From the IMG/VR virus record IMGVR_UViG_3300021425_000050, positions 1 to 54,498 of that record: a DNA stretch of 54,498 bases; one strand, written 5' to 3'. A program made the translations under genes and the position numbers. A model generated the notes under the pieces. It made no database searches. It had not been told where the DNA came from and saw nothing but the letters and a program-made list of their open reading frames with translations. Of the stretch, positions 3,830 through 22,788 are shown piece after piece; position 1 is the first letter of the stretch, and each line of letters begins with the position of its first letter. The stretch is from a virus. Taxonomy: Duplodnaviria > Caudoviricetes.

Positions 3830-5593
3830 ATGGCAGATAAAATATACATTAAACACAATTTAGGGAACTTTAATCAACCTTACATCGCAAGGTCGACAGT
3901 TAATGCTCAAAACCCTATAATCGCTCAGCAGAATAGAAGACAACCTAGAATTCTACAAGTTCCTAGCACTTATCAAAATAGACAACCGAGCACCTATCGT
4001 GACCCTGTAAATGCTCAACAACCTAATATTAGAAATAAACAACATCCGTTTAATAGAAGTTATAGAACACCAAACGCAGTAAGTAATCAGGTTCCGTTTA
4101 CATACCCTACGATAGCACAACAACCTGCGACTTATCAACATCAGAGTCCAAGTATATACACTGCTCAGACTCAAATACCTAGTCAATATCAACATCAGAG
4201 TCCTTATATTACTAGAAGAAGTTATACTTTTCAAAGTCCAGCGATTTATCAACATCAATCGCCCTATACATTTCGTTCGCCAGGAACAGTGCAACAACCA
4301 GGTACTTATCAACATCAACAACCTGCTTCGTATGACCACAGAAGTCCTTATACTATACCTAAAACTTATAGTCATAGAACGCCTGTAAGTAGACAAAACT
4401 CTATTGCTAATCCTGTTATTAGACATAGAGATTATCAGAATCCTGTAAATTACCAGAATCCTGTAATTAGAGATAGACAGAGTCCAGTCATTGCACAATC
4501 ACCAACTCCAGTAATTATAGCAAACGGTAATGTAGGAACGACATATTATTACGGTGCTGGAAGAAATCGTATTAATAGTCCATTAGCAGCTACTAGAATT
4601 CCAAGTATAGTCACAGGAGCTCAAAGTCCTATGGCCCCCATGTCTTGGAATGCATATGGAATTTATAATCATCAATCAACTACTGTCTCAACTTATAATT
4701 CGCAGGTAGAACTTGCATTTAGATTAGATTGTAACTGGATTAACGGCAGTCCTTATTTCAATCTTTGGACAAAAAGAGGACCTACTGCAACTTCATCCCC
4801 TTATTCAAATGGAAGTTATTTCTGTTATGATGAGATAGATACTTCAACTGTTATGGGTTCAACAGCAGGTTGGTATATTGCTTCAAATTGGGATTTACCA
4901 TCATCGATGGTAAATAGTGGTAGTGGGTTTAAGATAAACATGATATTACAAGATTGGACGGGTTCTAGTGGAACAGTTTCAGGTATTCAACCTGTGACAT
5001 CGTTTGATTATTCACATACAAATATCAGTTATGGAACTGATATAAGTTCGTCAGTGGGAACTTCTGACCCAAGTAGTATTTGGACAGGTACTGGTACAGG
5101 TGCATCTGCCTTTATGACCAAAACTGTTAACGGTTCTCCTGGAACAACTTTTAACAACGCTGTAACTGCTGCTACAATATCATATCCAGCGGATCCAGGT
5201 GGTTCAGGCGCTCAAACAGCATCATCATTATCATGGGGTGTAAAAACAACAGCAATTAGAAATACAGGTGGTAATACAGCAACATTTACTAATAGTTCAA
5301 ACTTTGATATAATTGTGCAAATAGAATTAGAAGACCAACACACTTCTAATTCAAATGATTTACCATATCACTTAGTTAGAACAACTAATTTATTACAAAG
5401 AGTCACAACAGGCGGCGGCGGAGGAGGCGGTGGCGGGTTTACCCCATTCACTCCTACTTTCCAATCTTTCTATCAAGAGCCTCTCCAACAGGAAATTAAT
5501 AGATATAACCAGGACATAGAAAATAGATATACGCCGTTGGCCCCATCGGTTATAAATCCAACTATTAACGAATTCGACAGTGGTATACAATAA
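3830..5593 (+). CDS. Pro-punctuated repeat protein (zipper chain A1) with C-terminal Ser/Thr/Gly-rich domain and poly-Gly
   Basis: A 202-aa tract of 6-12 aa Pro-delimited units (3878-4483), then a long non-repetitive S/T/G/N-rich region and GGGGGGGGGF near the end. Confidence 0.7.
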   Translation: MADKIYIKHNLGNFNQPYIARSTVNAQNPIIAQQNRRQPRILQVPSTYQNRQPSTYRDPVNAQQPNIRNKQHPFNRSYRTPNAVSNQVPFTYPTIAQQPATYQHQSPSIYTAQTQIPSQYQHQSPYITRRSYTFQSPAIYQHQSPYTFRSPGTVQQPGTYQHQQPASYDHRSPYTIPKTYSHRTPVSRQNSIANPVIRHRDYQNPVNYQNPVIRDRQSPVIAQSPTPVIIANGNVGTTYYYGAGRNRINSPLAATRIPSIVTGAQSPMAPMSWNAYGIYNHQSTTVSTYNSQVELAFRLDCNWINGSPYFNLWTKRGPTATSSPYSNGSYFCYDEIDTSTVMGSTAGWYIASNWDLPSSMVNSGSGFKINMILQDWTGSSGTVSGIQPVTSFDYSHTNISYGTDISSSVGTSDPSSIWTGTGTGASAFMTKTVNGSPGTTFNNAVTAATISYPADPGGSGAQTASSLSWGVKTTAIRNTGGNTATFTNSSNFDIIVQIELEDQHTSNSNDLPYHLVRTTNLLQRVTTGGGGGGGGGFTPFTPTFQSFYQEPLQQEINRYNQDIENRYTPLAPSVINPTINEFDSGIQ

Positions 5594-5595
5594 AC

Positions 5596-6405
5596 ATGGC
5601 ACAGCAATATACAGTAAATACTAGGGCATCGTTTCAATCGTCTACGCCTGTGCAATATGGTCACAGAACTCCTGCAACTACAAGACAGCCTGCTATTCAA
5701 CCTTACGGTAATCAGGAACCATATCAGTCACCTTCTACTTACAGACACCCTGTAATTAGAAATTATGATATGAATAGACAACAACCTAATATTAGGAACT
5801 ACAGAATACCTTTAACAGATGTTGATTATCAAACAACTGTAGATTATCAACAACCAACTAGTGGCGGTGTTCCTTTTGATAGAAGTTATAGAACGCCTCT
5901 AACAGGTAGATATCCATTTGCAAATAGACAACCTAATATAAGAGATAGACAAACTCCTTCTCCTTATATTGCTAATAAACAGAATCCGTTTATCAGAAAT
6001 TATCAGAACCCATACGCTTATCAGGCAAGTGATAGACAACCTACAATTTATAATGCTCAAATAGCAGGTTCTTATCAACATCAATCTCCTTCTGAATATC
6101 AACATAGAAGTCCGTTCACTTATCAGAATCCTGTTAATGCTCAGAATCCTTATATTGCAAATGCACAATCGAATCAACCTTATCAGATTGTATATCAAGT
6201 TGCATATTCTTATAGAAGTCCGTCAACTTATCAGATTACATATAATAGTCAAAGACCCATTACGCAGGTTGCAGAAGCAAAAGCAATATACATCAAAGAC
6301 GCTGATGGTGTGGTAAAGAAAGTTAATAAGGCATATGTAAAAAATAATAGCACAGATGTAGAACAAATACATCAATCTATACCTTATCCTAATCTAAACA
6401 CTTAA
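5596..6405 (+). CDS. Pro-punctuated repeat protein (zipper chain B1, mirror partner of 3830-5593)
   Basis: A 203-aa repeat tract (5647-6255) and a C-terminal AIYIKDADGVVKKVNKAYVK motif. Starts 2 nt after the upstream stop. Confidence 0.7.
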   Translation: MAQQYTVNTRASFQSSTPVQYGHRTPATTRQPAIQPYGNQEPYQSPSTYRHPVIRNYDMNRQQPNIRNYRIPLTDVDYQTTVDYQQPTSGGVPFDRSYRTPLTGRYPFANRQPNIRDRQTPSPYIANKQNPFIRNYQNPYAYQASDRQPTIYNAQIAGSYQHQSPSEYQHRSPFTYQNPVNAQNPYIANAQSNQPYQIVYQVAYSYRSPSTYQITYNSQRPITQVAEAKAIYIKDADGVVKKVNKAYVKNNSTDVEQIHQSIPYPNLNT

Positions 6406-6409
6406 ATCG

Positions 6410-6417
6410 TATAAATA
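6410..6417 (+). promoter_or_regulatory. T4-type late (gp55) promoter TATAAATA
   Basis: Exact TATAAATA 5 nt upstream of ATG 6423. gp55 is encoded in the window. Confidence 0.75.
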
Positions 6418-6422
6418 GTTGT

Positions 6423-6755
6423 ATGGCTATTATCGCAAACTTATTCATAGACCAAGGAACAGACTTTAGTGTGACTGTTGATGTCACTGGTGCTGATGGT
6501 GAAATATTAAACCTGAATGGTTATACTGCTTCAGCACAAATAAGAAAAACATATTCATCATCTACAACTGCTGCTACATTCGCTACATCAATTGCAGAAG
6601 CATCAGGTCAAGTCACATTATCACTAACAGATACACAAACATCTGCTCTATCTCATGGAAGATATGTCTATGATATGAACATAACAAGTGGTGGCGGTCA
6701 AACAACAAGAGTTGTAGAAGGACAAGCTATCATAACACCAGGAGTCACACGATGA
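6423..6755 (+). CDS. Small virion structural protein (baseplate/fibre adaptor-like)
   Basis: NLFIDQGTDF...ASAQIRK...GRYVYD...RVVEG...TPGVT pattern common in T4-like marine phage structural regions. Confidence 0.65.
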   Translation: MAIIANLFIDQGTDFSVTVDVTGADGEILNLNGYTASAQIRKTYSSSTTAATFATSIAEASGQVTLSLTDTQTSALSHGRYVYDMNITSGGGQTTRVVEGQAIITPGVTR

Positions 6756-9589: not shown

Positions 9590-10000
9590 ATGCCAATAAC
9601 AAACGCATTTAAAATCGCTGAGTTGATTCGTCATATGTCCTATAATAGCACTGATGATGTAATTGAGATAACAAAAGGAACAACCGACTTAAATAGAATA
9701 AAGGGAGATGCAACTTATACCGCAACTACCGAAGTCGCACTTGATACTTTTGCTCACGCATCATTTAGAGCTGCTCGATATATTGTAGCAATGTCTGAGG
9801 GAAGTAATTTCCACTCAACTGAAATCATGATTGTTCATGATGGAAGTGCTGTGACATTAACTCAATATGGTACATTGAAAGATACAACTTTAGCAACTTT
9901 TGACGCTGATATAAGTGGGGATAATGTAAGGCTGTTAGTAACTCCAGCGAGTTCTAACTCTACAGTCGTAAAATTCCAAGGAACACTAATAGACGCTTAA
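9590..10000 (+). CDS. Virion structural protein (single copy of the shared C-terminal beta domain)
   Basis: LDTF...ARY...TEI.IVHDG...TQYG...F.ADI.G.NVRL.VTPAS aligns by eye with the ends of 8753 and 10077. Confidence 0.65.
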   Translation: MPITNAFKIAELIRHMSYNSTDDVIEITKGTTDLNRIKGDATYTATTEVALDTFAHASFRAARYIVAMSEGSNFHSTEIMIVHDGSAVTLTQYGTLKDTTLATFDADISGDNVRLLVTPASSNSTVVKFQGTLIDA

Positions 10001-10020
10001 TTATAAAAAGATATTCTTTT

Positions 10021-10047
10021 AGGGGACTTTCGAGTCCCCTTTTTTTT
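10021..10047 (+). terminator. Rho-independent terminator with UUCG loop
   Basis: AGGGGACT-TTCG-AGTCCCCT followed by a T-run. Confidence 0.9.
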
Positions 10048-10076
10048 AGCACTTTAAAATCGCATAAATAGTTATC

Positions 10077-10910
10077 ATGGCATCAAAAGTAAAATTTTTT
10101 GCAGACTTAGGATTACAATCTGCTCTCAATACCCAAGTCGATGGAGACTTGACTGTTGCTGGTGATTTAACAGTTACAGGTACTACAGTCACAGTTAACT
10201 CGTCAACAACAAGTGTTGAAGACTCAATGCTTGAACTTGCAAATTCGAATACGAGTGCAGATATAATAGACATTGGTATCTACGGAAATTATAATGATGG
10301 TTTATCAGATGGCGGTGCAAGTGAATATACAGGATTATTCAGAGATGCAACTGATTCTACATGGAAATTATTTGAAGGTTTAGAAGTAGAACCTTCTACT
10401 TCTGTTAACACATCAGGTTCAGGATATACTCTTGCAGATTTACAAGTCGGTGACTTGACTGCAACTACAATTACAGCGACTAACTCATTAACTGGCGCTA
10501 GTATGACATATCCAACATCAGACGGAACAAACGGACAAGTATTAACGACAAACGGAAGTGGCGTATTATCATTTCAAGACGCTTCAGGATTAGAAAGTGG
10601 AACAATTACAACAACATCTACCTCAATAACAAATTTAGATACATTTACTGTATCATCTTCAAGGGGTGGAAAATATACAATAACATTGTCAGACTCAACA
10701 TCAGGCGTATATCAGACTACAGAAATACATTTAATACATGATGATTCTTCAAGTTCATTGTCTCAATTCGGTACAGTATTGCAAGGCGGAAGTAACGAAC
10801 TTGCAACATTTTCAACAGATGTGTTAAGCGGAAGTGTCAGACTCAGAGTTACACCAGCATCAACAAATTCAACTAAAATAAGTTTCAAAAAAATACTAAT
10901 AGATGCGTAA
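10077..10910 (+). CDS. Tail fibre-associated protein
   Basis: GDLTVAGDLTVTGTTVTVNS and PTSDGTNGQVL modules plus the shared C-terminal domain. Preceded by CATAAATA at 10063-10070. Confidence 0.7.
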   Translation: MASKVKFFADLGLQSALNTQVDGDLTVAGDLTVTGTTVTVNSSTTSVEDSMLELANSNTSADIIDIGIYGNYNDGLSDGGASEYTGLFRDATDSTWKLFEGLEVEPSTSVNTSGSGYTLADLQVGDLTATTITATNSLTGASMTYPTSDGTNGQVLTTNGSGVLSFQDASGLESGTITTTSTSITNLDTFTVSSSRGGKYTITLSDSTSGVYQTTEIHLIHDDSSSSLSQFGTVLQGGSNELATFSTDVLSGSVRLRVTPASTNSTKISFKKILIDA

Positions 10911-10985
10911 ACACATGTCTTTTAAAGGGACATGATTACTAAATAAAGGTGTTAGTTAACACTAAACTATTAATAGGACACAATA

Positions 10986-11204
10986 ATGGCAACACAAAAC
11001 ACATTTGTAATAGAATATGGGTTAACAGTCGGTTCTACAGAAATCATTACATCAGCAGGAAAACTAGTCGCTAGTGCATTGTCTGAATTAGATACTGATT
11101 CTTTGTCAGAAGGTTCGACTAACCAATATTTCACAACATCAAGATTCAACACATCTTTTGATACGAGACTAGCGAATGCTACAATTGACGGAGGTACTAT
11201 CTAA
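10986..11204 (+). CDS. Miniature fibre-like protein (72 aa)
   Basis: N-terminus paralogous to 11204 (GLTVGSTE.I.S.G), one TDSLSEGSTNQYFT module, ends IDGGTI. SD AGGA. Confidence 0.65.
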   Translation: MATQNTFVIEYGLTVGSTEIITSAGKLVASALSELDTDSLSEGSTNQYFTTSRFNTSFDTRLANATIDGGTI

Positions 11205-13207
11205 TGTCAAGTAAGAATTTCATAATTAAAAATGGTCTTACTGTAGGTTCTACAGAAGTTATCAATTCTTCAGGTATCATTCAACCCGCCGCTGTAAATG
11301 AGGCGATTGATGATAGAGTAGATGCATTACTAACAGCGGGTGCAGGAATATCATTATCATATGATGACTCTGCTGGTACGCTAACAATCACAGGTAATGT
11401 CGGAGATATCACAGGAGTAAACGCTGGTGACGGTCTAACAGGTACTGCAACATCAGGAGATGCAACACTTAATATCGGTGCAGGTAATGGTATTACTGTA
11501 AATGCAGACGATATTGAAGTTAACATGGGTGCATTTAGCACATCAGATTTAACAGAAGGTTCAAACAAATATTATACAGACGAAAGAGTAGACGATAGAG
11601 TTAATGCTTTAATCACAGCGGGTTCAAACATCACAACAACATATGATGATGCCGCTGGTACTTTAACAATCGCTGCTACAGAAGATAACCTTTCAAACAA
11701 CGATACAGACGACCTCTCAGAAGGTTCATCAAACTTATACTATACCGATGCAAGAGCAAGAGCTTCTATATCAGCAAGTGGGGATTTGTCCTATAATTCT
11801 ACAACTGGTGTAATTAGTTTCACAAATGATGCAGGTGATATAGAAAGTGTAGTCGCAGGTTCTGGTTTAACAGGAGGCGGCACATCAGGTGATGTCACAT
11901 TAAATGTTATAGGTGGTGACGGTATCACTGCAAATGCAAATGACATCGCATTATCATCATCAGTTGCTGGTGATGGTCTAGGATACTCATCAGGTGTTTT
12001 ATCAGTCGGTGTAGATGATAGTTCAATCGAAATAGATTCAGATAACTTGCAAGTAAAAGCAGGTGGTATCACAAATGCTATGTTGGCAGGTTCTATCGAC
12101 CAATCTAAACTATCAGGTGGTATTTTAAATTCACAATTAGCAAATAGTTCAGTCACAGTCAATTCAAATACAGTAGCATTAGGTGCTTCTATAACTTTAG
12201 ACACAGGCGACTTTGCAGAAAATGGAAATCTATTTTATACAGACGAAAGAGTTGATGACAGAGTTTCAAACTTACTAACAGCAGGTTCAAATGTTTCATT
12301 GTCATATGATGACGCCGCTGGAACATTGACAATTTCTGCTACAGAAGATAACTTATCAAACAACACAACTTCTGATTTAGCAGAAGGTACAAATCTTTAC
12401 TTCACTAACGCAAGAGCAGATGCTAGAGTTAATGCAGTATTACCTAATACAGATTCATTAAGTGAAGGTTCATCAAATCTATATTTTTCTAATGAAAGAG
12501 TAGATGATAGAGTTAACGCTTTATTGGCAGCAGGTACAGGTATCACATTATCATATGATGACGCCGCTAACACACTAACAATTGGTGGTACTGCTCAATA
12601 TGGAGATTCAGATGCTAGAGATGCAATCTCAGTCACAGATTCAGGTGGCGATGGTTCTCTTGCTTATAACAGTTCAACAGGTGTTATAACTTATACAGGA
12701 CCTAGTTCAAGTGAAGTTAGAGCTCATCTAAGTGCAGGTACTGGTGTATCATATTCAGGTGGTCAATTCAGTATCGGACAGGCAGTTGGCACATCAGACA
12801 ATGTAACCTTTAACAATGCAGTTATATCAGGTGACTTAACAGTTAACGGTTCAACAACAACTGTATCTTCTACAAATACAACAATCGAAGATTCATTATT
12901 AGAATTAGGAACAGGAACTACAGGTTCTCCTTCTAACGATGCTGGTATTGTTATTGAGAGAGGAGATGAGTCTAATGTGTTTATGGGTTGGGACGACAGT
13001 GCAAGTGCATTTATGTTCGCTTCAACAACTGCAACAGGTTCGTCAACAGGTGCTTTATCGTTGACACACGCTGCTGTTAATACAGGTGCTTTAACAATTA
13101 CAAACGCAACAAATAGTGGCGGTACAGCAAGAAATGTGTATCAATCAACTTCTGCTCCAACATCAGGTGATGGTGCAGTTGGTGATTTATGGATTTTATA
13201 CTCTTAA
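11204..13207 (+). CDS. Long tail fibre protein with internal repeats
   Basis: Multiple D..EGS.NLY(Y/F)TD(E/A)R(V/A)DDRV...AG.....YDDAAGTLTI repeats. C-terminal SAPTSGDGAVGDLWI motif. Confidence 0.75.
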   Translation: MSSKNFIIKNGLTVGSTEVINSSGIIQPAAVNEAIDDRVDALLTAGAGISLSYDDSAGTLTITGNVGDITGVNAGDGLTGTATSGDATLNIGAGNGITVNADDIEVNMGAFSTSDLTEGSNKYYTDERVDDRVNALITAGSNITTTYDDAAGTLTIAATEDNLSNNDTDDLSEGSSNLYYTDARARASISASGDLSYNSTTGVISFTNDAGDIESVVAGSGLTGGGTSGDVTLNVIGGDGITANANDIALSSSVAGDGLGYSSGVLSVGVDDSSIEIDSDNLQVKAGGITNAMLAGSIDQSKLSGGILNSQLANSSVTVNSNTVALGASITLDTGDFAENGNLFYTDERVDDRVSNLLTAGSNVSLSYDDAAGTLTISATEDNLSNNTTSDLAEGTNLYFTNARADARVNAVLPNTDSLSEGSSNLYFSNERVDDRVNALLAAGTGITLSYDDAANTLTIGGTAQYGDSDARDAISVTDSGGDGSLAYNSSTGVITYTGPSSSEVRAHLSAGTGVSYSGGQFSIGQAVGTSDNVTFNNAVISGDLTVNGSTTTVSSTNTTIEDSLLELGTGTTGSPSNDAGIVIERGDESNVFMGWDDSASAFMFASTTATGSSTGALSLTHAAVNTGALTITNATNSGGTARNVYQSTSAPTSGDGAVGDLWILYS

Positions 13208-13239: not shown

Positions 13240-14859
13240 ATGGCAACAGGCTCACAGAAGGTAAAAACACCCTCAGGTTGGAATTCAACGCAAGGGGCAT
13301 GGGTAAAAACAGGAACATCAACTTGGAAGGCAGTCGACCAAATCTATGTGAAGACACCTTCTGGTTGGAATAATGCTTCTGGTCAAGAATCGGTTCAACA
13401 ACCGTATCCTTACATCGCAAATGCCCAAGAACCTAATATAAGAGATGCTCAACAACCTTATCCTTATATTGCAAATGCCCAAGAACCTAATATCAGAGAT
13501 GCTCAGCAACCTTATCCTTACATTGCGAATGCACAAAGTCCATTTATTAGAAACGGTCAACAACCTGCGATATATCAAAATCCGGTAAATGCACAAAGTC
13601 CATTTATTAGAAATGCTCAAGAACCGAACATAAGGTCAGCACAAGAACCTAATATTAGAAACGCACAAACACCGTTTACATATCAACACAGGTCACCTTT
13701 TACATACAGAGACCCAAGGTCATATAGAAATCCGTTTACATATCAACACAGGTCTCCATTTACATATCGAAACCCTGTAGATTATAGAGTGCCTTCGACT
13801 TATCAACACAGGTCACCTTCTACATATAGAGACCCAAGGTCATACAGAGTACCATTTACATATCAACACAGGTCTCCTTTTACATATAGAGACCCAAGGT
13901 CGTATAGAGTACCATTCACTTATAGTCACAGGTCGCCGTTTACATATCGAAACCCTGTTGGTTATAATATGCCGTTTACATATCAACACAGGTCGCCTTT
14001 CACATATCAGTCTAGACAACCTAACAGTGCAAGACAACCAGTTGCATACAGGTCACCGTTTACATATAGAAACCCTGTATCAGCACAACAACCAGTTGCA
14101 TTTAGGTCACCATTTACATACAGTGCTAGATATCCTGCTAACATTCAACAACCGGTAACATATCAGTCGCCGTTTACATACAGTGCTAGATATCCTGCAA
14201 ACGCTCAACAACCGAATAGTGCTAGACAACCTTTTACATATCAGGCAAGACAACCTGTTTATTTTCCACCCCCTCCAGGTGGCGGTTTCGGTTGTTTCCC
14301 TGCTGGGTCAATGGTCTGGTTGGCAGATGGTTCACATGTTGCTATCGAAACTGTCGAAGTTGGACAAAATGTTTGGACTTGGAACGAAGAACTCAATACA
14401 TTGGAAATCAATGCTGTCGAATACTGTATGAAACCAAGAGTTGTTTCAGTATGGGATATTTACTTATCAGATGGTAGAGTATTACAAACAACAGATGACC
14501 ACCCAATTAAGATTGCAGGTGTCGAAGGTTGGGGTGCTTTAAATCCTGAATTAACTGTAGAAAGACACGAATGGTTGTCAGATGATATGACACATACATT
14601 AGAAGTAGGAACTAGAATATTCACTATGACTGATGCAGTTCTATACGGTAAAGAATCAGAAGAAGTAGTAATAGAAAAAATAGAACAAAATGATGAAATG
14701 GTAGTGTATAACTTATCAGCGATTGCTAATACAGGAACATTCTTTGTTAACGGAGTTTTAGTTCATAACTACTATAACCCAATCACTGGTGAGTATGAAA
14801 ACACACCGAACTTGATGGAAGACAAATTAGACCCTGGTTTCACACCACTACCAAAATAG
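13240..14859 (+). CDS. Pro-punctuated repeat protein (zipper chain A2) with C-terminal Hint/BIL domain
   Basis: N-terminal VKTPSGW / WVK..W / YVKTPSGW motifs, 40 Pro-delimited units (13402-14253), then PPPPGGGFG and a CFPAG...VHN Hint domain. Confidence 0.8.
   Translation: MATGSQKVKTPSGWNSTQGAWVKTGTSTWKAVDQIYVKTPSGWNNASGQESVQQPYPYIANAQEPNIRDAQQPYPYIANAQEPNIRDAQQPYPYIANAQSPFIRNGQQPAIYQNPVNAQSPFIRNAQEPNIRSAQEPNIRNAQTPFTYQHRSPFTYRDPRSYRNPFTYQHRSPFTYRNPVDYRVPSTYQHRSPSTYRDPRSYRVPFTYQHRSPFTYRDPRSYRVPFTYSHRSPFTYRNPVGYNMPFTYQHRSPFTYQSRQPNSARQPVAYRSPFTYRNPVSAQQPVAFRSPFTYSARYPANIQQPVTYQSPFTYSARYPANAQQPNSARQPFTYQARQPVYFPPPPGGGFGCFPAGSMVWLADGSHVAIETVEVGQNVWTWNEELNTLEINAVEYCMKPRVVSVWDIYLSDGRVLQTTDDHPIKIAGVEGWGALNPELTVERHEWLSDDMTHTLEVGTRIFTMTDAVLYGKESEEVVIEKIEQNDEMVVYNLSAIANTGTFFVNGVLVHNYYNPITGEYENTPNLMEDKLDPGFTPLPK
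14293..14769 (+). other. Hint (intein-like/BIL) autoprocessing domain, 159 aa, no homing endonuclease
   Basis: Block A CFPAGSMVWLADG..IETVEVG, block B TTDDHP, block F VYNL and block G FFVNGVLVHN. The +1 residue is Tyr. Confidence 0.9.
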
Positions 14860-14876
14860 GAGTATGAGAGAATAAT

Positions 14877-15809
14877 ATGCCAGATTTTCAATCACCTTAC
14901 ATTGCAAATGGTCAAAACCCATTTACATTTAGGGCCCCATTTACATATAGAGTTCCTTATATTGCGAATGCAAGACAACCAGTTGCATTTAGGTCACCGT
15001 TTACATATAGGGTCCCTTACATCGCTAATGCTCAGCAACCGAATACATACAGGTCACCTTTCACTTACAGAAACCCTGTAAATGCTCAACAACCTGTCAC
15101 ATTCCAATCACCGTTTACATTCCAATCACCTTATATTGCGAATGCTCAAGAACCGAATATCAGGTCAGCACAAACTCCAAGAGGATATCGTGTACCTGTT
15201 TCTGCTCAAGAACCGAATATTAGAAACGCTCAACAACCTGCTGGTTATAGATTACCTGTTAATGCTCAAGAACCGAATATCAGGTCAGCACAACAACCTG
15301 CTGGTTATAGATTGCCTGTTAATGCTCAAGAACCGAATATTAGAAACAGACAAACACCTGCAAAATATCAGAATCCAGTAAACGCTCAGGAACCTAATAT
15401 TAGAAACGCACAACAGCCTGCTGGTTATCAGCATCCTGTTTCTGCTCAACAACCTAATATTAGAGATGCAAGACAACCATCGACTTATCAACATAGGTCT
15501 CCGTTTACTTATAATCATAGGTCTCCATTTACTTATCAACATAGGTCTCCGTCTACATATAGAGACCCTGTAAGTTATAGAGTTCCATTTACATATCAAC
15601 ATAGAAGTCCTTCGACATATGCAACACAAGGTCAGACACCGTTTACATATCAACACAGGTCTCCTTTCACATATGCAAGACAAGGTCAAACACCGTTTAC
15701 CTATCAACATAGAAGTCCGTTTACATATGCAACACAAGGAAGAACACCAGTAATCCGTTGGGATGGTGATTTGAATCAAAATTGGCCAGGTACTCCAGTG
15801 TCGTCATAA
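14877..15809 (+). CDS. Pro-punctuated repeat protein (zipper chain B2, mirror partner of 13240-14859)
   Basis: Almost the whole protein is 40 Pro-delimited units (14895-15746). Confidence 0.8.
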   Translation: MPDFQSPYIANGQNPFTFRAPFTYRVPYIANARQPVAFRSPFTYRVPYIANAQQPNTYRSPFTYRNPVNAQQPVTFQSPFTFQSPYIANAQEPNIRSAQTPRGYRVPVSAQEPNIRNAQQPAGYRLPVNAQEPNIRSAQQPAGYRLPVNAQEPNIRNRQTPAKYQNPVNAQEPNIRNAQQPAGYQHPVSAQQPNIRDARQPSTYQHRSPFTYNHRSPFTYQHRSPSTYRDPVSYRVPFTYQHRSPSTYATQGQTPFTYQHRSPFTYARQGQTPFTYQHRSPFTYATQGRTPVIRWDGDLNQNWPGTPVSS

Positions 15810-21933: not shown

Positions 21934-22788
21934 ATGCCAACAAATGTTTTTTTCAACCATGCAGTTTCTACAGAGCAACAACTATACGAAGATTTAGTTG
22001 TAGAGTCTCTTAGAATCTACGGACACGAAGTATACTATCTCCCTAGAGAGGTTGTAGAAGAAGATAGCATCTTAAATGAAGATGTGCAATCTCGTTTCGG
22101 TGATGCTTATCAGGTTGAAATGTATTTAGAAAATACAGAAGGTTTCGAAGGAGAAGGAGACCTTATGTCTAAGTTTGGTGTTCAAGTAAGAGACCAGGCA
22201 ACATTTATTATATCACTTAGAAGTTGGGAAAGATTCATATCATTAGATTCTAATCTTGCAACTTCATTCAGACCAAACGAAGGCGACTTGATATATTTTC
22301 CATTATCAGGTTCAATGTTTGAAATCAAATTTGTAGAACACGAAGACCCATTCTATCAAGTTGGTAAACTCTTTGTGTTTAAACTTAGAACAGAATTGTT
22401 CGAATACAGTCAAGAAGATTTCGATACAGGTATCGGCGATATAGACCTTATTGAAGACGAACAGGCATATACTATATCAATGACTATGGCAAGTGGAAAC
22501 GGTATAGACTTTATTGCTAATGAGAATATTACACTCAATAGTAATGTAGTTGGTGAAGTTGTATCTTGGAATGATAGCAATGACAAACTAACTATCAAAG
22601 ATAACACTACAACACTTGCAGTCGGCGATGTGTTGACAGGTGTTGAATCGACAGCAGAATTTACAATTAACTCTATCGATAGTGTATTAACATTCGAAAA
22701 TGATGCAATGGCAGATAACTTAGAGTTTGAAAACAAAGATTCTGATTACTTAGACTTATCAGAAATTAACCCATTTGGTGAACCTTAA
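21934..22788 (+). CDS. gp14: Neck protein gp14
   Basis: EQ.LYEDLV.E...IYG..VYYLPR, RPNEGDLIYFP, FYQ.GK and NPFGE motifs; synteny. Confidence 0.9.
   Translation: MPTNVFFNHAVSTEQQLYEDLVVESLRIYGHEVYYLPREVVEEDSILNEDVQSRFGDAYQVEMYLENTEGFEGEGDLMSKFGVQVRDQATFIISLRSWERFISLDSNLATSFRPNEGDLIYFPLSGSMFEIKFVEHEDPFYQVGKLFVFKLRTELFEYSQEDFDTGIGDIDLIEDEQAYTISMTMASGNGIDFIANENITLNSNVVGEVVSWNDSNDKLTIKDNTTTLAVGDVLTGVESTAEFTINSIDSVLTFENDAMADNLEFENKDSDYLDLSEINPFGEP

What the first reader, a model, noticed from the sequence alone, without database searches (positions are those of the whole stretch)
13402..15746. Two adjacent genes encode mirror-image repeat tracts: a candidate two-chain antiparallel protein zipper (40/40 register match)
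Seen in sequence: cutting chain A2 (13402-14253) at prolines, with PYPYIANAQx counted as one 10-mer, gives unit lengths 10,8,10,8,10,8,6,6,8,8,8,8,6,6,8,6,6,8,6,6,8,6,6,8,6,6,8,8,6,6,6,6,6,8,6,6,8,6,6,8. Chain B2 (14895-15746) read from C- to N-terminus gives exactly the same irregular 40-unit series. Both tracts are 284 residues and every unit has even length. Inference: the two chains pair antiparallel along their full length as a hetero beta-ribbon, about 95 nm if extended at ~0.33 nm per residue. It would be a giant hairpin split at its turn, with the A2 C-terminal cargo at the tip. I know of no described phage fibre built this way.
Basis: partly seen in the sequence, partly recalled or inferred. 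Interest (0 to 1): 0.96.

Follow-up and report, generated by a model that had tools for sequence, protein, structure and literature searches.

The report
Two-gene antiparallel phage fibre duplex
Two neighbouring genes of an uncultured marine T4-like phage encode proline-punctuated repeat chains whose repeat lengths and repeat types match in opposite order, as if they zip together head-to-tail into one long split hairpin fibre tipped by a self-cleaving domain, a design not found in any described phage fibre.

Summary
Cut at prolines, gene A (13402-14253) read forwards and gene B (14895-15746) read backwards give the same 40-unit length series. Without any unit definition, 42 of 42 B prolines lie opposite A prolines in one gapless mirror register (shuffle maximum 27).

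I collected 24 distinct homologous pairs. Tracts run from 205 to 523 residues, and A and B lengths correlate at r=0.998. In total 970 of 1038 B prolines coincide, and 22 of 24 pairs reach at least 85%.

The units are also complementary in type: PFTYQHRS-type always faces PNIRNAQE/PYIANAQQ-type (477 pairs against 1). Residues on the non-proline face covary, for example Phe with Ala/Gly and His with Arg/Lys.

Natural single-chain relatives are self-complementary hairpins, and a second split pair lies at 3830-6405.

Gene A ends in a BIL-type Hint autoprocessing domain, placed where the hairpin turn would be.

The structure predictions said nothing about the tracts, so geometry, oligomer state and the fate of the Hint thioester are inferred. 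No Pfam or PHROG family, GenBank phage or paper that I found describes this design.

The parts
13240..14859 (+). Gene A, 539 aa: base domain, arm 1 of the duplex, Gly linker, Hint domain, short tail
   Evidence: ORF. 24 distinct full-length homologues aligned. No PHROG family.
13240..13401 (+). A N-terminal domain (residues 1-54, MATGSQKVKTPSGWN..KTPSGWNNASG), at the proposed base end
   Evidence: Most columns are invariant in 24 sequences. The proline register puts W43/N44 opposite B W303/N302 (register, sequences). AF2 gives only low-confidence strands.
13402..14253 (+). A tract: 40 Pro-initiated units of 6, 8 or 10 residues (arm 1)
   Evidence: AF2 of A alone gives pLDDT 25-32 here.
14254..14292 (+). 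Linker PVYFPPPPGGGFG ending at the predicted scissile Gly351|Cys352 bond; the would-be hairpin loop
   Evidence: Poly-Gly precedes the Cys in 24 of 24 homologues. B Met1 lies opposite the A residue 7 positions before the Cys, and 3-13 positions before it in 22 of 24 pairs.
14293..14769 (+). Hint (bacterial intein-like) autoprocessing domain, Cys352 to Asn510
   Evidence: Pfam Hint, Intein_splicing and Vint hits, all below gathering score. C352, H421 (TDDHP), H509 and N510 are invariant in 24 sequences. AF2 pLDDT is about 82-91. Foldseek best matches are the BIL2 domain 6tmm (TMt 0.81) and BIL 2lwy (TMt 0.85), then mini-inteins and hedgehog 1at0.
14770..14856 (+). C-terminal tail after His-Asn (29 aa here, about 4-12 aa in most homologues), with no Cys/Ser/Thr at +1
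   Evidence: with the true ends read from the sequences. The +1 residue is Y, F, M or G in the 24 complete pairs and S in P0001/L041.
14860..14876 (+). 17-nt spacer with a purine-rich GAGAG before the ATG of B
   Evidence: The spacer is -1 to 48 nt in the 24 pairs.
14877..15809 (+). Gene B, 310 aa: arm 2 of the duplex plus a conserved C-terminal tail
   Evidence: ORF. 24 homologues aligned. AF2 of B alone gives pLDDT 30 throughout. No PHROG family.
14895..15746 (+). B tract: 40 units that mirror A in length and complement it in type
15747..15806 (+). B C-terminal tail PVIRWDGDLNQNWPGTPVSS, at the proposed base end
   Evidence: R294, W295, D296, W303, P304 and P307 are invariant. It faces the A N-terminal KTPSGWN motif in the proline register.
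3830..5593 (+). Gene C, 587 aa: second duplex, arm 1 (MADKIYIKHNLG.., degenerate tract to about residue 230) plus an unannotated globular domain, a G9 run and a tail
   Evidence: No Pfam or PHROG family.
5596..6405 (+). Gene D, 269 aa: second duplex, arm 2, ending ..AKAIYIKDADG..EQIHQSIPYPNLNT
   Evidence: 14 of 28 prolines in mirror; ADKIYI faces IYIKDA read backwards; mirror score 67, parallel 16, shuffled maximum 32.

Best explanation
Genes A and B encode the two arms of one long beta hairpin that has been split at its turn.

Proposed pairing. The two Pro-periodic tracts pair antiparallel and in register over their whole length, with proline opposite proline. The even spacing keeps every proline in the same backbone phase. 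One face is nearly invariant and polar or basic (P, T, Q, R / P, I, N, Q). The other is aromatic or small (F, Y, H, S / N, R, A, E) and is packed by size-complementary residues.

Pairing code. Partner and register are specified by a unit code. F-type units (PFTYQHRS, PFTYRN, PxTYAxQGQT) face N/Q-type units (PNIRNAQE or PYIANAQQ, PVNAQE, PYPYIANAQE). PxxYRx units face their own kind.

Ends of the hairpin. The conserved A N-terminus and B C-terminus lie together at one end, probably the end that attaches to the virion. The other end is the hairpin tip. There A runs through a poly-Gly loop into a BIL-type Hint domain next to B's N-terminus.

Role of the Hint domain. It most likely makes a Gly351-Cys352 thioester and removes itself, either after or while the arms zip up.

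Shown versus inferred. Shown by sequence: the register, the code, the covariation, the fused and Hint-less relatives, and the intact Hint catalytic residues and fold. Inferred: physical binding, beta geometry, bundling of several duplexes (the amphipathy suggests it), a role as a host-recognition fibre, and Hint cleavage.
For: 1. Window. 40 of 40 unit lengths match and 42 of 42 prolines lie in one gapless mirror register, against a shuffle maximum of 27.

2. Compensated length changes.
- 24 distinct pairs have A tracts of 210-523 residues and B tracts of 205-519 residues.
- Lengths correlate at r=0.998, or 0.997 over 15 length classes, with a median difference of 4 residues.
- 970 of 1038 B prolines coincide in mirror, against 559 at the best parallel offsets. 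22 of 24 pairs reach at least 85%.

3. Type code.
- Window alone: 16 of 16 8-mers are F8:N8, 3 of 3 10-mers are complementary, 12 6-mers are F6:Q6-like and 9 are Y6:Y6, with no other combination.
- All pairs: 477 F8:N8 against 1 same-type, 189 F6:Q6, 56 Y6:Y6 and 69 N10:F10, out of 946 unit pairs.

4. Residue covariation in 212 distinct F8:N8 unit pairs.
- F2-N6 carries 1.28 bits: Phe faces Ala/Gly in 104 of 109 cases, Leu faces Gln in 17 of 22, and Tyr faces Ile in 5 of 5.
- F6-N4: His faces Arg/Lys in 160 of 166 cases, and Ala/Asn/Ser faces Ala in 36 of 37.
- F8-N2 carries 0.77 bits.
- All strong couplings join non-proline-phase positions along the antiparallel band. The parallel diagonal carries 0.05-0.30 bits.

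5. The same register aligns A W43/N44 with B W303/N302.

6. Fused relatives. The single chains P0015, P0016 and P0018 score 109, 86 and 89 against their own reversed second half, versus 13-15 in parallel and shuffled maxima of 50, 42 and 34. P0016 is symmetric about residue 224.5 of 446.

7. A second split pair, C/D, in the same window scores 67 in mirror, against 16 in parallel and a shuffled maximum of 32. The cross pairs A/D and C/B do not exceed their shuffles, so pairing is partner-specific.

8. Genes are co-oriented and -1 to 48 nt apart.

9. Hint domain. C352, H421, H509 and N510 are invariant, the AF2 model is confident, and BIL domains are the best fold matches.

10. Context. The phage is a T4-like myovirus (sheath, portal, MCP, terminase). 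The pair lies among fibre-like genes in the variable region that a pelagimyophage paper calls the host recognition cluster (passages of PMC7029224).

11. Phase composition is amphipathic.
Against: - No physical or structural evidence exists for the tracts. AF2 leaves both tracts unfolded as single chains (pLDDT 25-35).
- Two of 24 pairs carry an unmatched 20-residue block (L055: A shorter; L040: B longer). L011 has units of 7 and 10 in B that break the phase. These could be real tolerance or assembly errors in repeats.
- The 24 pairs are related, so counts of unit pairs are not independent events, and the shuffle controls ignore phylogeny.
- Both arms are strongly basic (R+K 33 and 30 against D+E 10 and 7), which does not obviously favour association.
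- The covariation does not fix the exact residue register. F2-N6, a diagonal neighbour, is stronger than F2-N8, the direct opposite.
- Virion location is inferred from gene neighbourhood only. No cultured phage carries the genes.
- Hint activity is inferred from residues and fold. The Pfam scores lie below gathering thresholds.
Confidence: 0.7

Rival explanations
1. Same pairing, different geometry. Each Pro-delimited unit is one side of a prism-like beta-helix, as in the octapeptide triple beta-helix of T4 gp5. Arms A and B wind in opposite directions as an antiparallel multi-start helix, so the fibre is several times shorter than 95 nm.
For: - Units of 6-8 residues delimited by a kink-prone residue recall the gp5 octapeptide prism (passages of PMC3004832).
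- Three-unit periodicities dominate the series: (8,6,6), (8,8,6), (8,8,4) and (8,8,8,8,6,6).
Against: - The period-2 stretch (10,8)x3 and the phase slips such as (6,6,8) to (8,6,6) fit a fixed three-sided prism poorly.
- Known triple beta-helices are parallel homotrimers.
- The three-unit periodicity can equally come from tandem duplication of a 60-nt block.
- No structural test was possible.
Confidence: 0.2
2. The Hint domain does not merely fall off. Its Gly351 thioester is attacked by the free N-terminal amine of B, so the two arms become one covalently closed hairpin after translation.
For: - In the proline register B Met1 sits 3-13 residues from the scissile bond in 22 of 24 pairs, bridged by a poly-Gly loop.
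- Single-chain relatives have this continuous topology.
- The best fold match, Tetrahymena BIL2, is reported to ligate a C-terminal Gly to an amine of another protein without ATP (passage of PMC8616854; fold match).
- The +1 residue is not a nucleophile, so classical splicing is unlikely.
Against: - No experiment bears on it.
- B's N-terminus has no conserved nucleophile beyond the amine (MP.., MA.., MS.., MV.., MN..).
- A Hint-less pair (L075) and the C/D pair show that the duplex design does not need ligation.
- The invariant His-Asn end is not needed for this route.
Confidence: 0.18
3. A and B do not touch each other. Both lie in opposite directions on a common third periodic scaffold, such as another fibre or the tail, and that scaffold imposes matched lengths and mirrored order.
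For: Matched lengths and mirrored unit order alone would also follow from a shared ruler.
Against: - The hetero-type unit code and the residue-level size compensation between the two chains are what direct contact predicts.
- Tract lengths vary 2.5-fold among close relatives of one phage group, which is unlike a conserved scaffold.
- Single-chain self-complementary relatives exist.
Confidence: 0.06
4. The tracts are intrinsically disordered, basic low-complexity regions, for example nucleic-acid- or surface-binding. The symmetry is then a by-product of how the repeats were duplicated.
For: - AF2 gives no fold for either chain alone.
- Both tracts are rich in R, Q, Y and P.
- B has a weak Cementoin hit.
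Against: - Duplication history cannot keep two genes mirror-matched through at least 15 different length classes.
- Nor can it produce cross-gene residue covariation.
- Strict even spacing and the near-invariant T3/R7/I3/Q7 positions indicate a structural constraint.
Confidence: 0.04

Closest known systems
T4 gp37 long-tail-fibre needle domain (six-stranded antiparallel beta needle, trimer of chain hairpins)
   Same: It is a phage fibre segment in which each chain runs out to the tip and back, so out-going and returning strands pair antiparallel and the tip sits at the turn. A passage of PMC9659904 citing Bartual 2010 was seen; the hairpin topology itself is recalled.
   Different: - In gp37 the two strands belong to one chain of a homotrimer. 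The needle is about 15 nm long and is held by His-x-His iron sites (passage of PMC6957217).
- Here the arms are two gene products, 205-523 residues long, with no HxH (0 in either tract), a Pro-phased repeat code and no sequence similarity.
- The oligomer state is unknown.
Bacterial intein-like (BIL) domains, especially Tetrahymena BUBL BIL2 (6tmm) and Clostridium thermocellum BIL (2lwy)
   Same: - The fold matches (TMt 0.81-0.85).
- It has an N-terminal Cys after Gly, a block-B His, a C-terminal His-Asn, no homing endonuclease, and no Cys/Ser/Thr at +1 in the 24 complete pairs.
- BIL2 transfers a C-terminal Gly to an amine (passage of PMC8616854).
   Different: - Sequence identity is 18-25% and the Pfam scores are under gathering.
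- It sits at the end of a phage repeat protein, followed by only 4-29 residues.
- Its acceptor, if any, is unknown.
Self-cleaving C-terminal intramolecular chaperone domains of phage fibres and spikes (Peptidase S74 type)
   Same: These are C-terminal domains of fibre proteins that aid assembly and then cut themselves off (passage of PMC12143355). This is the role I think most likely for the Hint domain.
   Different: The fold and chemistry are unrelated: a triple-beta-helix serine-lysine protease against a Hint thioester. No Pfam S74 hit was found. S74 domains trimerise parallel chains.
T4 gp5 C-terminal triple-stranded beta-helix (octapeptide repeats)
   Same: It is made of short (8-residue) repeat units with a fixed kink position, which build a long phage beta needle from several chains (passages of PMC3004832).
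   Different: It is a parallel homotrimer of identical repeats. It has no second gene, no mirror order, no two-type complementarity, and a Gly rather than a Pro at the kink.
Heterodimeric coiled coils and heterotrimeric collagens (register set by complementary repeats)
   Same: Conceptually, chain choice and register are encoded by complementary residues in short periodic repeats (recalled general knowledge, no call).
   Different: Those are helical and mostly parallel. Here the periodicity is 2 (beta-like), the units are 6, 8 or 10 residues, and the chains run antiparallel.

Membership tests
Hint superfamily (Pfam clan of Hint, Intein_splicing, Vint) | Hint fold | tested here: met
   AF2 model pLDDT is about 82-91 over residues 351-510. 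Foldseek gives E 7e-10 to 1e-6 and TMt 0.70-0.85 against BIL domains, mini-inteins and hedgehog 1at0.
Hint superfamily (Pfam clan of Hint, Intein_splicing, Vint) | Score above Pfam gathering threshold | tested here: not met
   Hint scores 24.1 bits against 29.7, Intein_splicing 21.8 against 35.8, and Vint 20.4 against 27. It is a divergent member by sequence.
Hint superfamily (Pfam clan of Hint, Intein_splicing, Vint) | N-terminal Cys/Ser nucleophile and block-B Thr-x-x-His | tested here: met
   Gly-Cys352-Phe and T/S-x-x-H421-P are invariant in 24 sequences.
Canonical (class 1) intein | Cys/Ser/Thr at +1 of the C-extein and ligation of two host-protein exteins | tested here: not met
   The +1 residue is Y, F, M or G in the 24 complete pairs. 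Only 4-29 residues follow His-Asn before the stop. S occurs at +1 only in the P0001/L041 lineage.
Canonical (class 1) intein | C-terminal His-Asn | tested here: met
   H509 and N510 are invariant.
Bacterial intein-like (BIL) domain | Mini Hint domain without endonuclease, in a non-conserved or variable host protein, lacking a +1 nucleophile; autocleavage or non-canonical splicing | tested here: inconclusive
   Size (about 160 aa), flanks and the best fold matches (6tmm, 2lwy) fit. BIL-specific sequence motifs and activity were not tested; the definition is recalled from Pietrokovski-group papers that I did not read here.
Hedgehog/Hog autoprocessing domain | Sterol-recognition region after the Hint module | tested here: not met
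   Only a short variable tail follows His-Asn. Hedgehog 1at0 ranks below BILs and inteins. The Gly-Cys-Phe motif is shared (sequence; the hedgehog motif is recalled).
T4 gp37-type needle | His-x-His iron-binding repeats along the needle | tested here: not met
   There are 0 HxH motifs in A2 and in B2.
T4 gp37-type needle | Out-and-back antiparallel strands with the tip at the turn | tested here: inconclusive
   Antiparallel complementarity is shown by sequence. No structure is available.
Cementoin / trappin transglutaminase-substrate repeats (PF10511) | Score above gathering and Gln+Lys-bearing hexapeptide repeats | tested here: not met
   B scores 28.7 bits against a cut-off of 27, but B2 has 1 Lys and A2 has none. 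I read the hit as compositional (Pro/Val/Gln periodicity). The repeat motif of cementoin is recalled.
Any PHROG / GenBank phage protein family | Detectable homologue in annotated phages | tested here: not met
   A, B, C, D, P0010 and P0006 match no PHROG family; P0016 has only a weak C-terminal hit to the unknown-function family phrog_13729 (E 4.9e-05). tblastn or blastn of the locus, the Hint part, B and P0016 against 50,697 phage records found no match, with the low-complexity filter on.

The most novel reading that the evidence does not exclude
Marine T4-like phages build fibres from a protein 'duplex'. Two chains recognise each other antiparallel through a small alphabet of complementary beta units: F-type with N/Q-type, and Y-type with itself. 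Unit order acts as an address that sets partner and register, much as base pairing does for nucleic acids. In the A/B class, a BIL/Hint domain at the open end uses its thioester to join arm A's C-terminal glycine to arm B's N-terminus. That would close the hairpin covalently, an enzyme-free trans-ligation of two gene products.
Probability: 0.15. Interest if true: 0.95.

Novelty: categorically new. Interest (0 to 1): 0.9.

Why it matters
Phage fibres are, as far as described, parallel homotrimers, and their register comes from identical chains. This family appears to use two different chains, or one chain folded back, that pair antiparallel over hundreds of residues. A readable unit code holds through a 2.5-fold range of length.

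If confirmed, it would matter in several ways.
- It would be a new fibre architecture.
- It would be a natural, programmable beta-strand pairing code of interest to protein designers: heterospecific, register-defining and length-tunable.
- It would give a new biological role for bacterial intein-like domains.
- It annotates a widespread, wholly unannotated group of proteins (247 representative clusters). They sit in the host-recognition region of abundant uncultured marine myoviruses related to SAR11 and OM43 phages.

Tried and rejected
- Complex prediction on full A + B with my alignments gave no verdict: ipSAE 0.00 in two ESMFold2 runs, partner pLDDT under 50, controls not run. It says nothing either way.
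- AF2 of A alone and of B alone gave no fold for the tracts. Only the Hint domain was usable. Both structure quotas were then spent, so the natural single-chain relatives (P0015, P0016, P0018) could not be folded.
- The protein-atlas search on P0016 found only unnamed viral clusters. The Atlas holds no model of it.
- Gapless self-mirror proline counts on the 150 representative proteins found no clean single-chain hairpin. The gapped cross-strand scoring found them later. P0006, P0014, P0025 and P0154 are not self-complementary, and P0010 is borderline (56 against a shuffled maximum of 51).
- DNA-level explanations were checked and dropped. There is no inverted repeat, and blastn found nothing.
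- The distant Hint hits L024-L034 are other protein families and were left out of all pair counts.
- Rows dropped before the 24-pair counts. The 53 Hint ORFs scoring above 200 bits came from 52 loci and the window. Those cut by a contig end or lacking MATGSQ, GCF or RWD anchors, and exact duplicates, were removed. L043 and L045 (a different N-terminus) and L052 (a D-type partner end) are among those excluded.
- RNA evidence. Short contigs identical to the window occur in one metatranscriptome (X16: 14226-14400 and 15506-15680), and near-identical pieces occur in X17 and X18. The tool warns that DNA can be present in such libraries, so I do not count this as shown transcription. The 'joints' have sides under 30 nt in repeats and were ignored.
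- Literature. Nine searches found no description of these proteins. I saw only passages of PMC7029224, PMC12379486, PMC8616854, PMC6957217, PMC3004832, PMC9659904 and PMC12143355. Supplementary gene tables of PMC7029224 and PMC12379486 were not seen and might list these ORFs as hypothetical or structural proteins.

Full report
**What is at the coordinates.** The window is itself a 54,498-base virus record, estimated 30% complete. Two co-oriented ORFs cover the finding.
- Gene A is 13240-14859 (539 aa) and gene B is 14877-15809 (310 aa).
- They are separated by 17 nt containing a GAGAG purine run.
- PHROG scans identify a T4-like myovirus: large terminase, sheath, portal, scaffold, major capsid protein and sheath stabiliser.
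- The capsid protein is 62-65% identical to those of Methylophilales phage Melnitz and Pelagibacter phages HTVC008M and Mosig.
- A and B sit among fibre-like structural genes and a glycosyltransferase-like gene. They lie upstream of the gp15-like gene at 22788.
- The DNA occurs in seawater and marine metagenomes of about ten studies.

Both tracts are 284 residues, all 40 units have even length, and A forwards equals B backwards at 40 of 40 units.
- A test that needs no unit definition gives the same answer. In one gapless register (A index + B index = 344, 0-based), 42 of 42 B prolines face an A proline. The best parallel offset gives 23. In 2000 shuffles of B's unit order the mean was 16.4 and the maximum 27.
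- No inverted DNA repeat underlies the symmetry.

- Using the Hint part of A as bait, I fetched 63 loci from viral and metagenome contigs.
- After removing truncated and duplicate pairs, 24 distinct complete pairs remained.
- A tracts span 210-523 residues and B tracts 205-519. They correlate at r=0.998, or 0.997 over 15 length classes, with a median difference of 4 residues.
- In every architecture the A series equals the reversed B series, once units merged by loss of a proline (14=6+8, 12=4+8) are allowed.
- Gapless, 970 of 1038 B prolines coincide, against 559 at the best parallel offsets. 22 of 24 pairs reach at least 85%.
- The exceptions are reported as they stand. L055's A lacks one (6,6,8) block that its B keeps. 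L040's B has one block more than its A. L011's B has a 7 and a 10 that break the phase. All three lie away from the base end, and I cannot tell real tolerance from repeat mis-assembly.

**More than lengths: a pairing code.**
- In the window, all 16 8-mer pairs join a PFTYQHRS-type unit to a PNIRNAQE/PYIANAQQ-type unit.
- All 3 10-mer pairs join PYPYIANAQx to PxTYAxQGxT.
- The 21 6-mer pairs are either PFTYRx with PxxAQx (12) or PxxYRx with PxxYRx (9).
- Over all pairs, 8-mers are hetero-typed 477 times and same-typed once.
- Among 212 distinct F8:N8 unit pairs, residues covary strongly.
  - The strong couplings are between non-proline-phase positions, along the antiparallel band.
  - F2-N6 carries 1.28 bits: Phe faces Ala/Gly in 104 of 109 cases, Leu faces Gln in 17 of 22, and Tyr faces Ile in 5 of 5.
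  - The other strong couplings are F8-N2 at 0.77, F6-N2 at 0.68, F8-N4 at 0.64, F2-N8 at 0.54 and F6-N4 at 0.52 bits.
  - At F6-N4, His faces Arg/Lys in 160 of 166 cases, and small residues face Ala in 36 of 37.
  - The parallel diagonal carries 0.05-0.30 bits.
- The proline-phase positions are almost invariant: T3 and R7, I3 and Q7.
- That phase is polar or basic, while the other phase is aromatic or small. The result is an amphipathic pattern of period two.
- The same register extends beyond the repeats, putting A W43/N44 (KTPSGWN) opposite B W303/N302 (NWPGTP).
- These counts come from related sequences and are not independent events. The pattern is nonetheless what direct antiparallel contact predicts, and it is hard to obtain otherwise.

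**Fused, Hint-less and second-pair relatives.**
- A profile of B finds 247 representative proteins at E<=1e-3 among 1.84 billion.
- Many are 400-600 aa, begin MSDDIFIKHGLG or MADEIYINTG, and use the same units with diverse C-terminal domains.
- I derived a cross-strand log-odds matrix from the A/B pairs and used it to score other natural sequences.
- The single chains P0015, P0016 and P0018 are complementary to their own reversed second halves. They score 109, 86 and 89, against 13-15 in parallel and shuffled maxima of 50, 42 and 34. P0016 is symmetric about residue 224.5 of 446. They look like unsplit hairpins.
- The window holds a second split pair, C (3830-5593) and D (5596-6405).
  - 14 of 28 prolines coincide in mirror.
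  - The same register puts C's ADKIYI opposite D's IYIKDA read backwards.
  - The mirror score is 67, against 16 in parallel and a shuffled maximum of 32.
- A/D and C/B do not beat their shuffles, so each arm fits only its own neighbour.
- L075 is an A/B pair without a Hint domain. Its A has one in-frame stop, read as X. There 47 of 58 prolines coincide over about 520 residues, with 18-residue super-units that still obey the code.

**The domain at the tip.**
- After the tract, A continues PVYFPPPPGGGFG | C352 FPAGS... to ...VLVHN510, followed by 29 residues.
- Pfam reports Hint, Intein_splicing and Vint hits, all below gathering score.
- Cys352, the block-B His421, His509 and Asn510 are invariant in 24 sequences.
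- AF2 models residues 351-510 at pLDDT about 82-91.
- Foldseek's best matches are the BIL2 domain of the Tetrahymena BUBL locus (6tmm, TMt 0.81) and the C. thermocellum BIL (2lwy, TMt 0.85). Mini-inteins follow, and hedgehog ranks lower.
- The residue after Asn is Y, F, M or G in the 24 complete pairs. The tail is short and variable, so classical splicing is unlikely.
- In the proline register B's Met1 lies opposite the A residue 7 positions before the Cys, and 3-13 positions before it in 22 of 24 pairs. The poly-Gly stretch therefore occupies the place of the hairpin loop.

**How it most likely works.** I take A and B to be the two arms of a hairpin fibre split at its turn.
- The arms zip antiparallel, Pro opposite Pro.
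- From general knowledge of beta ribbons, not from a call: prolines spaced evenly would all fall on non-hydrogen-bonded positions of a two-stranded ribbon.
- The amphipathy suggests that several duplexes bundle with the aromatic face inward.
- The conserved A N-terminus and B C-terminus form the base, and the Hint end forms the tip.
- The Hint domain probably makes the Gly351-Cys352 thioester and leaves. This is functionally like the self-cleaving C-terminal chaperone domains of other fibres (passage of PMC12143355).
- My rough odds:

| Claim | Odds |
|---|---|
| Direct antiparallel in-register pairing | 0.8 |
| Virion fibre role | 0.6 |
| Hint N-terminal autoprocessing | 0.7 |
| Acyl group goes to water | about 0.45 |
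| Acyl group goes to B's N-terminus | about 0.18 |
| Acyl group goes to the chain's own tail | about 0.1 |
| Acyl group goes elsewhere | about 0.1 |

- Ligation to an amine has a precedent in BIL2 (passage of PMC8616854).
- The Hint-less and globular-tip relatives show that ligation is not needed for the design.

**What is not shown.**
- There is no structure for the tracts. AF2 leaves each chain alone unfolded.
- Both arms are strongly basic.
- Geometry (ribbon or prism), stoichiometry, virion location, transcription and Hint activity are all inferred.

**Comparison with known things.**
- The nearest architectural analogue is the T4 gp37 needle, a six-stranded antiparallel needle of a homotrimer (passage of PMC9659904). 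It has iron-binding His motifs (passage of PMC6957217) that are absent here.
- The gp5 octapeptide beta-helix shares short repeats but is a parallel homotrimer (passages of PMC3004832).
- No Pfam or PHROG family covers the tract proteins. The exceptions are a compositional Cementoin hit and a weak C-terminal PHROG hit for P0016.
- None of 50,697 GenBank phage records matches.
- Nine literature searches found no description (listed under Tried and rejected).

**Verdict.** The thing is best described as a new fibre architecture with a complementary beta-unit code, pending structural proof.

Noticed in passing
window 3830-6405: A second adjacent gene pair (C, 587 aa; D, 269 aa) uses the same unit vocabulary and is mirror-complementary. 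C carries an unannotated globular domain and a G9 run where A carries the Hint domain. C's N-terminal ADKIYIK faces D's AIYIKDAD read backwards.
   Followed up: partly
proteins P0006-P0155; e.g. P0006, P0010, P0025: A large unannotated superfamily (247 representative clusters) of 400-600-aa viral proteins. They start MSDDIFIKHGLG or MADEIYINTG, carry the same F/N units and have diverse C-terminal domains. Some are almost purely F-type (P0006: 16 F8, 0 N8) and others purely N-type (P0025: 25 N8, 0 F8), as if they were each other's partners. Their genomic context could not be fetched.
   Followed up: partly
L075:1584-4955: An A/B pair without a Hint domain. Its A gene has one in-frame stop exactly where a Tyr of a PYPYIANxQ unit is expected (a point change or a sequencing error). 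It uses 18-residue super-units, PAPYPYIANAQEPNIRRT, facing ..TYATQGITQTTYQHRS.
   Followed up: partly
L024-L034 (e.g. L025:3620-4957, L024:1847-4960, L031:3404-4486 and 5645-6703): Other phage contigs carry unrelated proteins with mini Hint domains bracketed by poly-Gly on both sides (GGGGGGC...VHNGGGG). L024 has two in tandem and L031 has two neighbouring genes that each end in one. This suggests BIL-type domains are a recurrent accessory of phage structural genes.
   Followed up: no
proteins P0003-P0005: Proteins of 760-914 aa with an unrelated N-terminal region followed by two or three tandem Hint domains joined ...VHNRACF... / ...THNKACF... One source names one of them 'intein/homing endonuclease'.
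   Followed up: no
window 9590-13207: Four consecutive ORFs (136, 277, 72 and 667 aa) share an N-terminal motif (..F.IK.GL.VG.TE.I..) and Ser/Thr/Gly-rich fibre-like repeats. The 136-aa and 277-aa products end in a similar C-terminal domain (..RLLVTPASSNSTVVKFQGTLIDA / ..RLRVTPASTNSTKISFKKILIDA).
   Followed up: no
window 13402-14253 and 14895-15746: Both tracts are strongly basic (A2: R+K 33, D+E 10; B2: 30 and 7) and contain no Cys or Trp and almost no Lys, Leu or Met. A duplex of two polycations is unexpected and unexplained.
   Followed up: partly
L052:1797-2918: Here a Hint-bearing A-type gene is followed by a partner that ends in the D-type C-terminus (..AKVKGVFIKD..KIHQKP..) rather than the RWDG..WPGTP end. 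The base-end modules and tip modules therefore appear to be shuffled among lineages.
   Followed up: no
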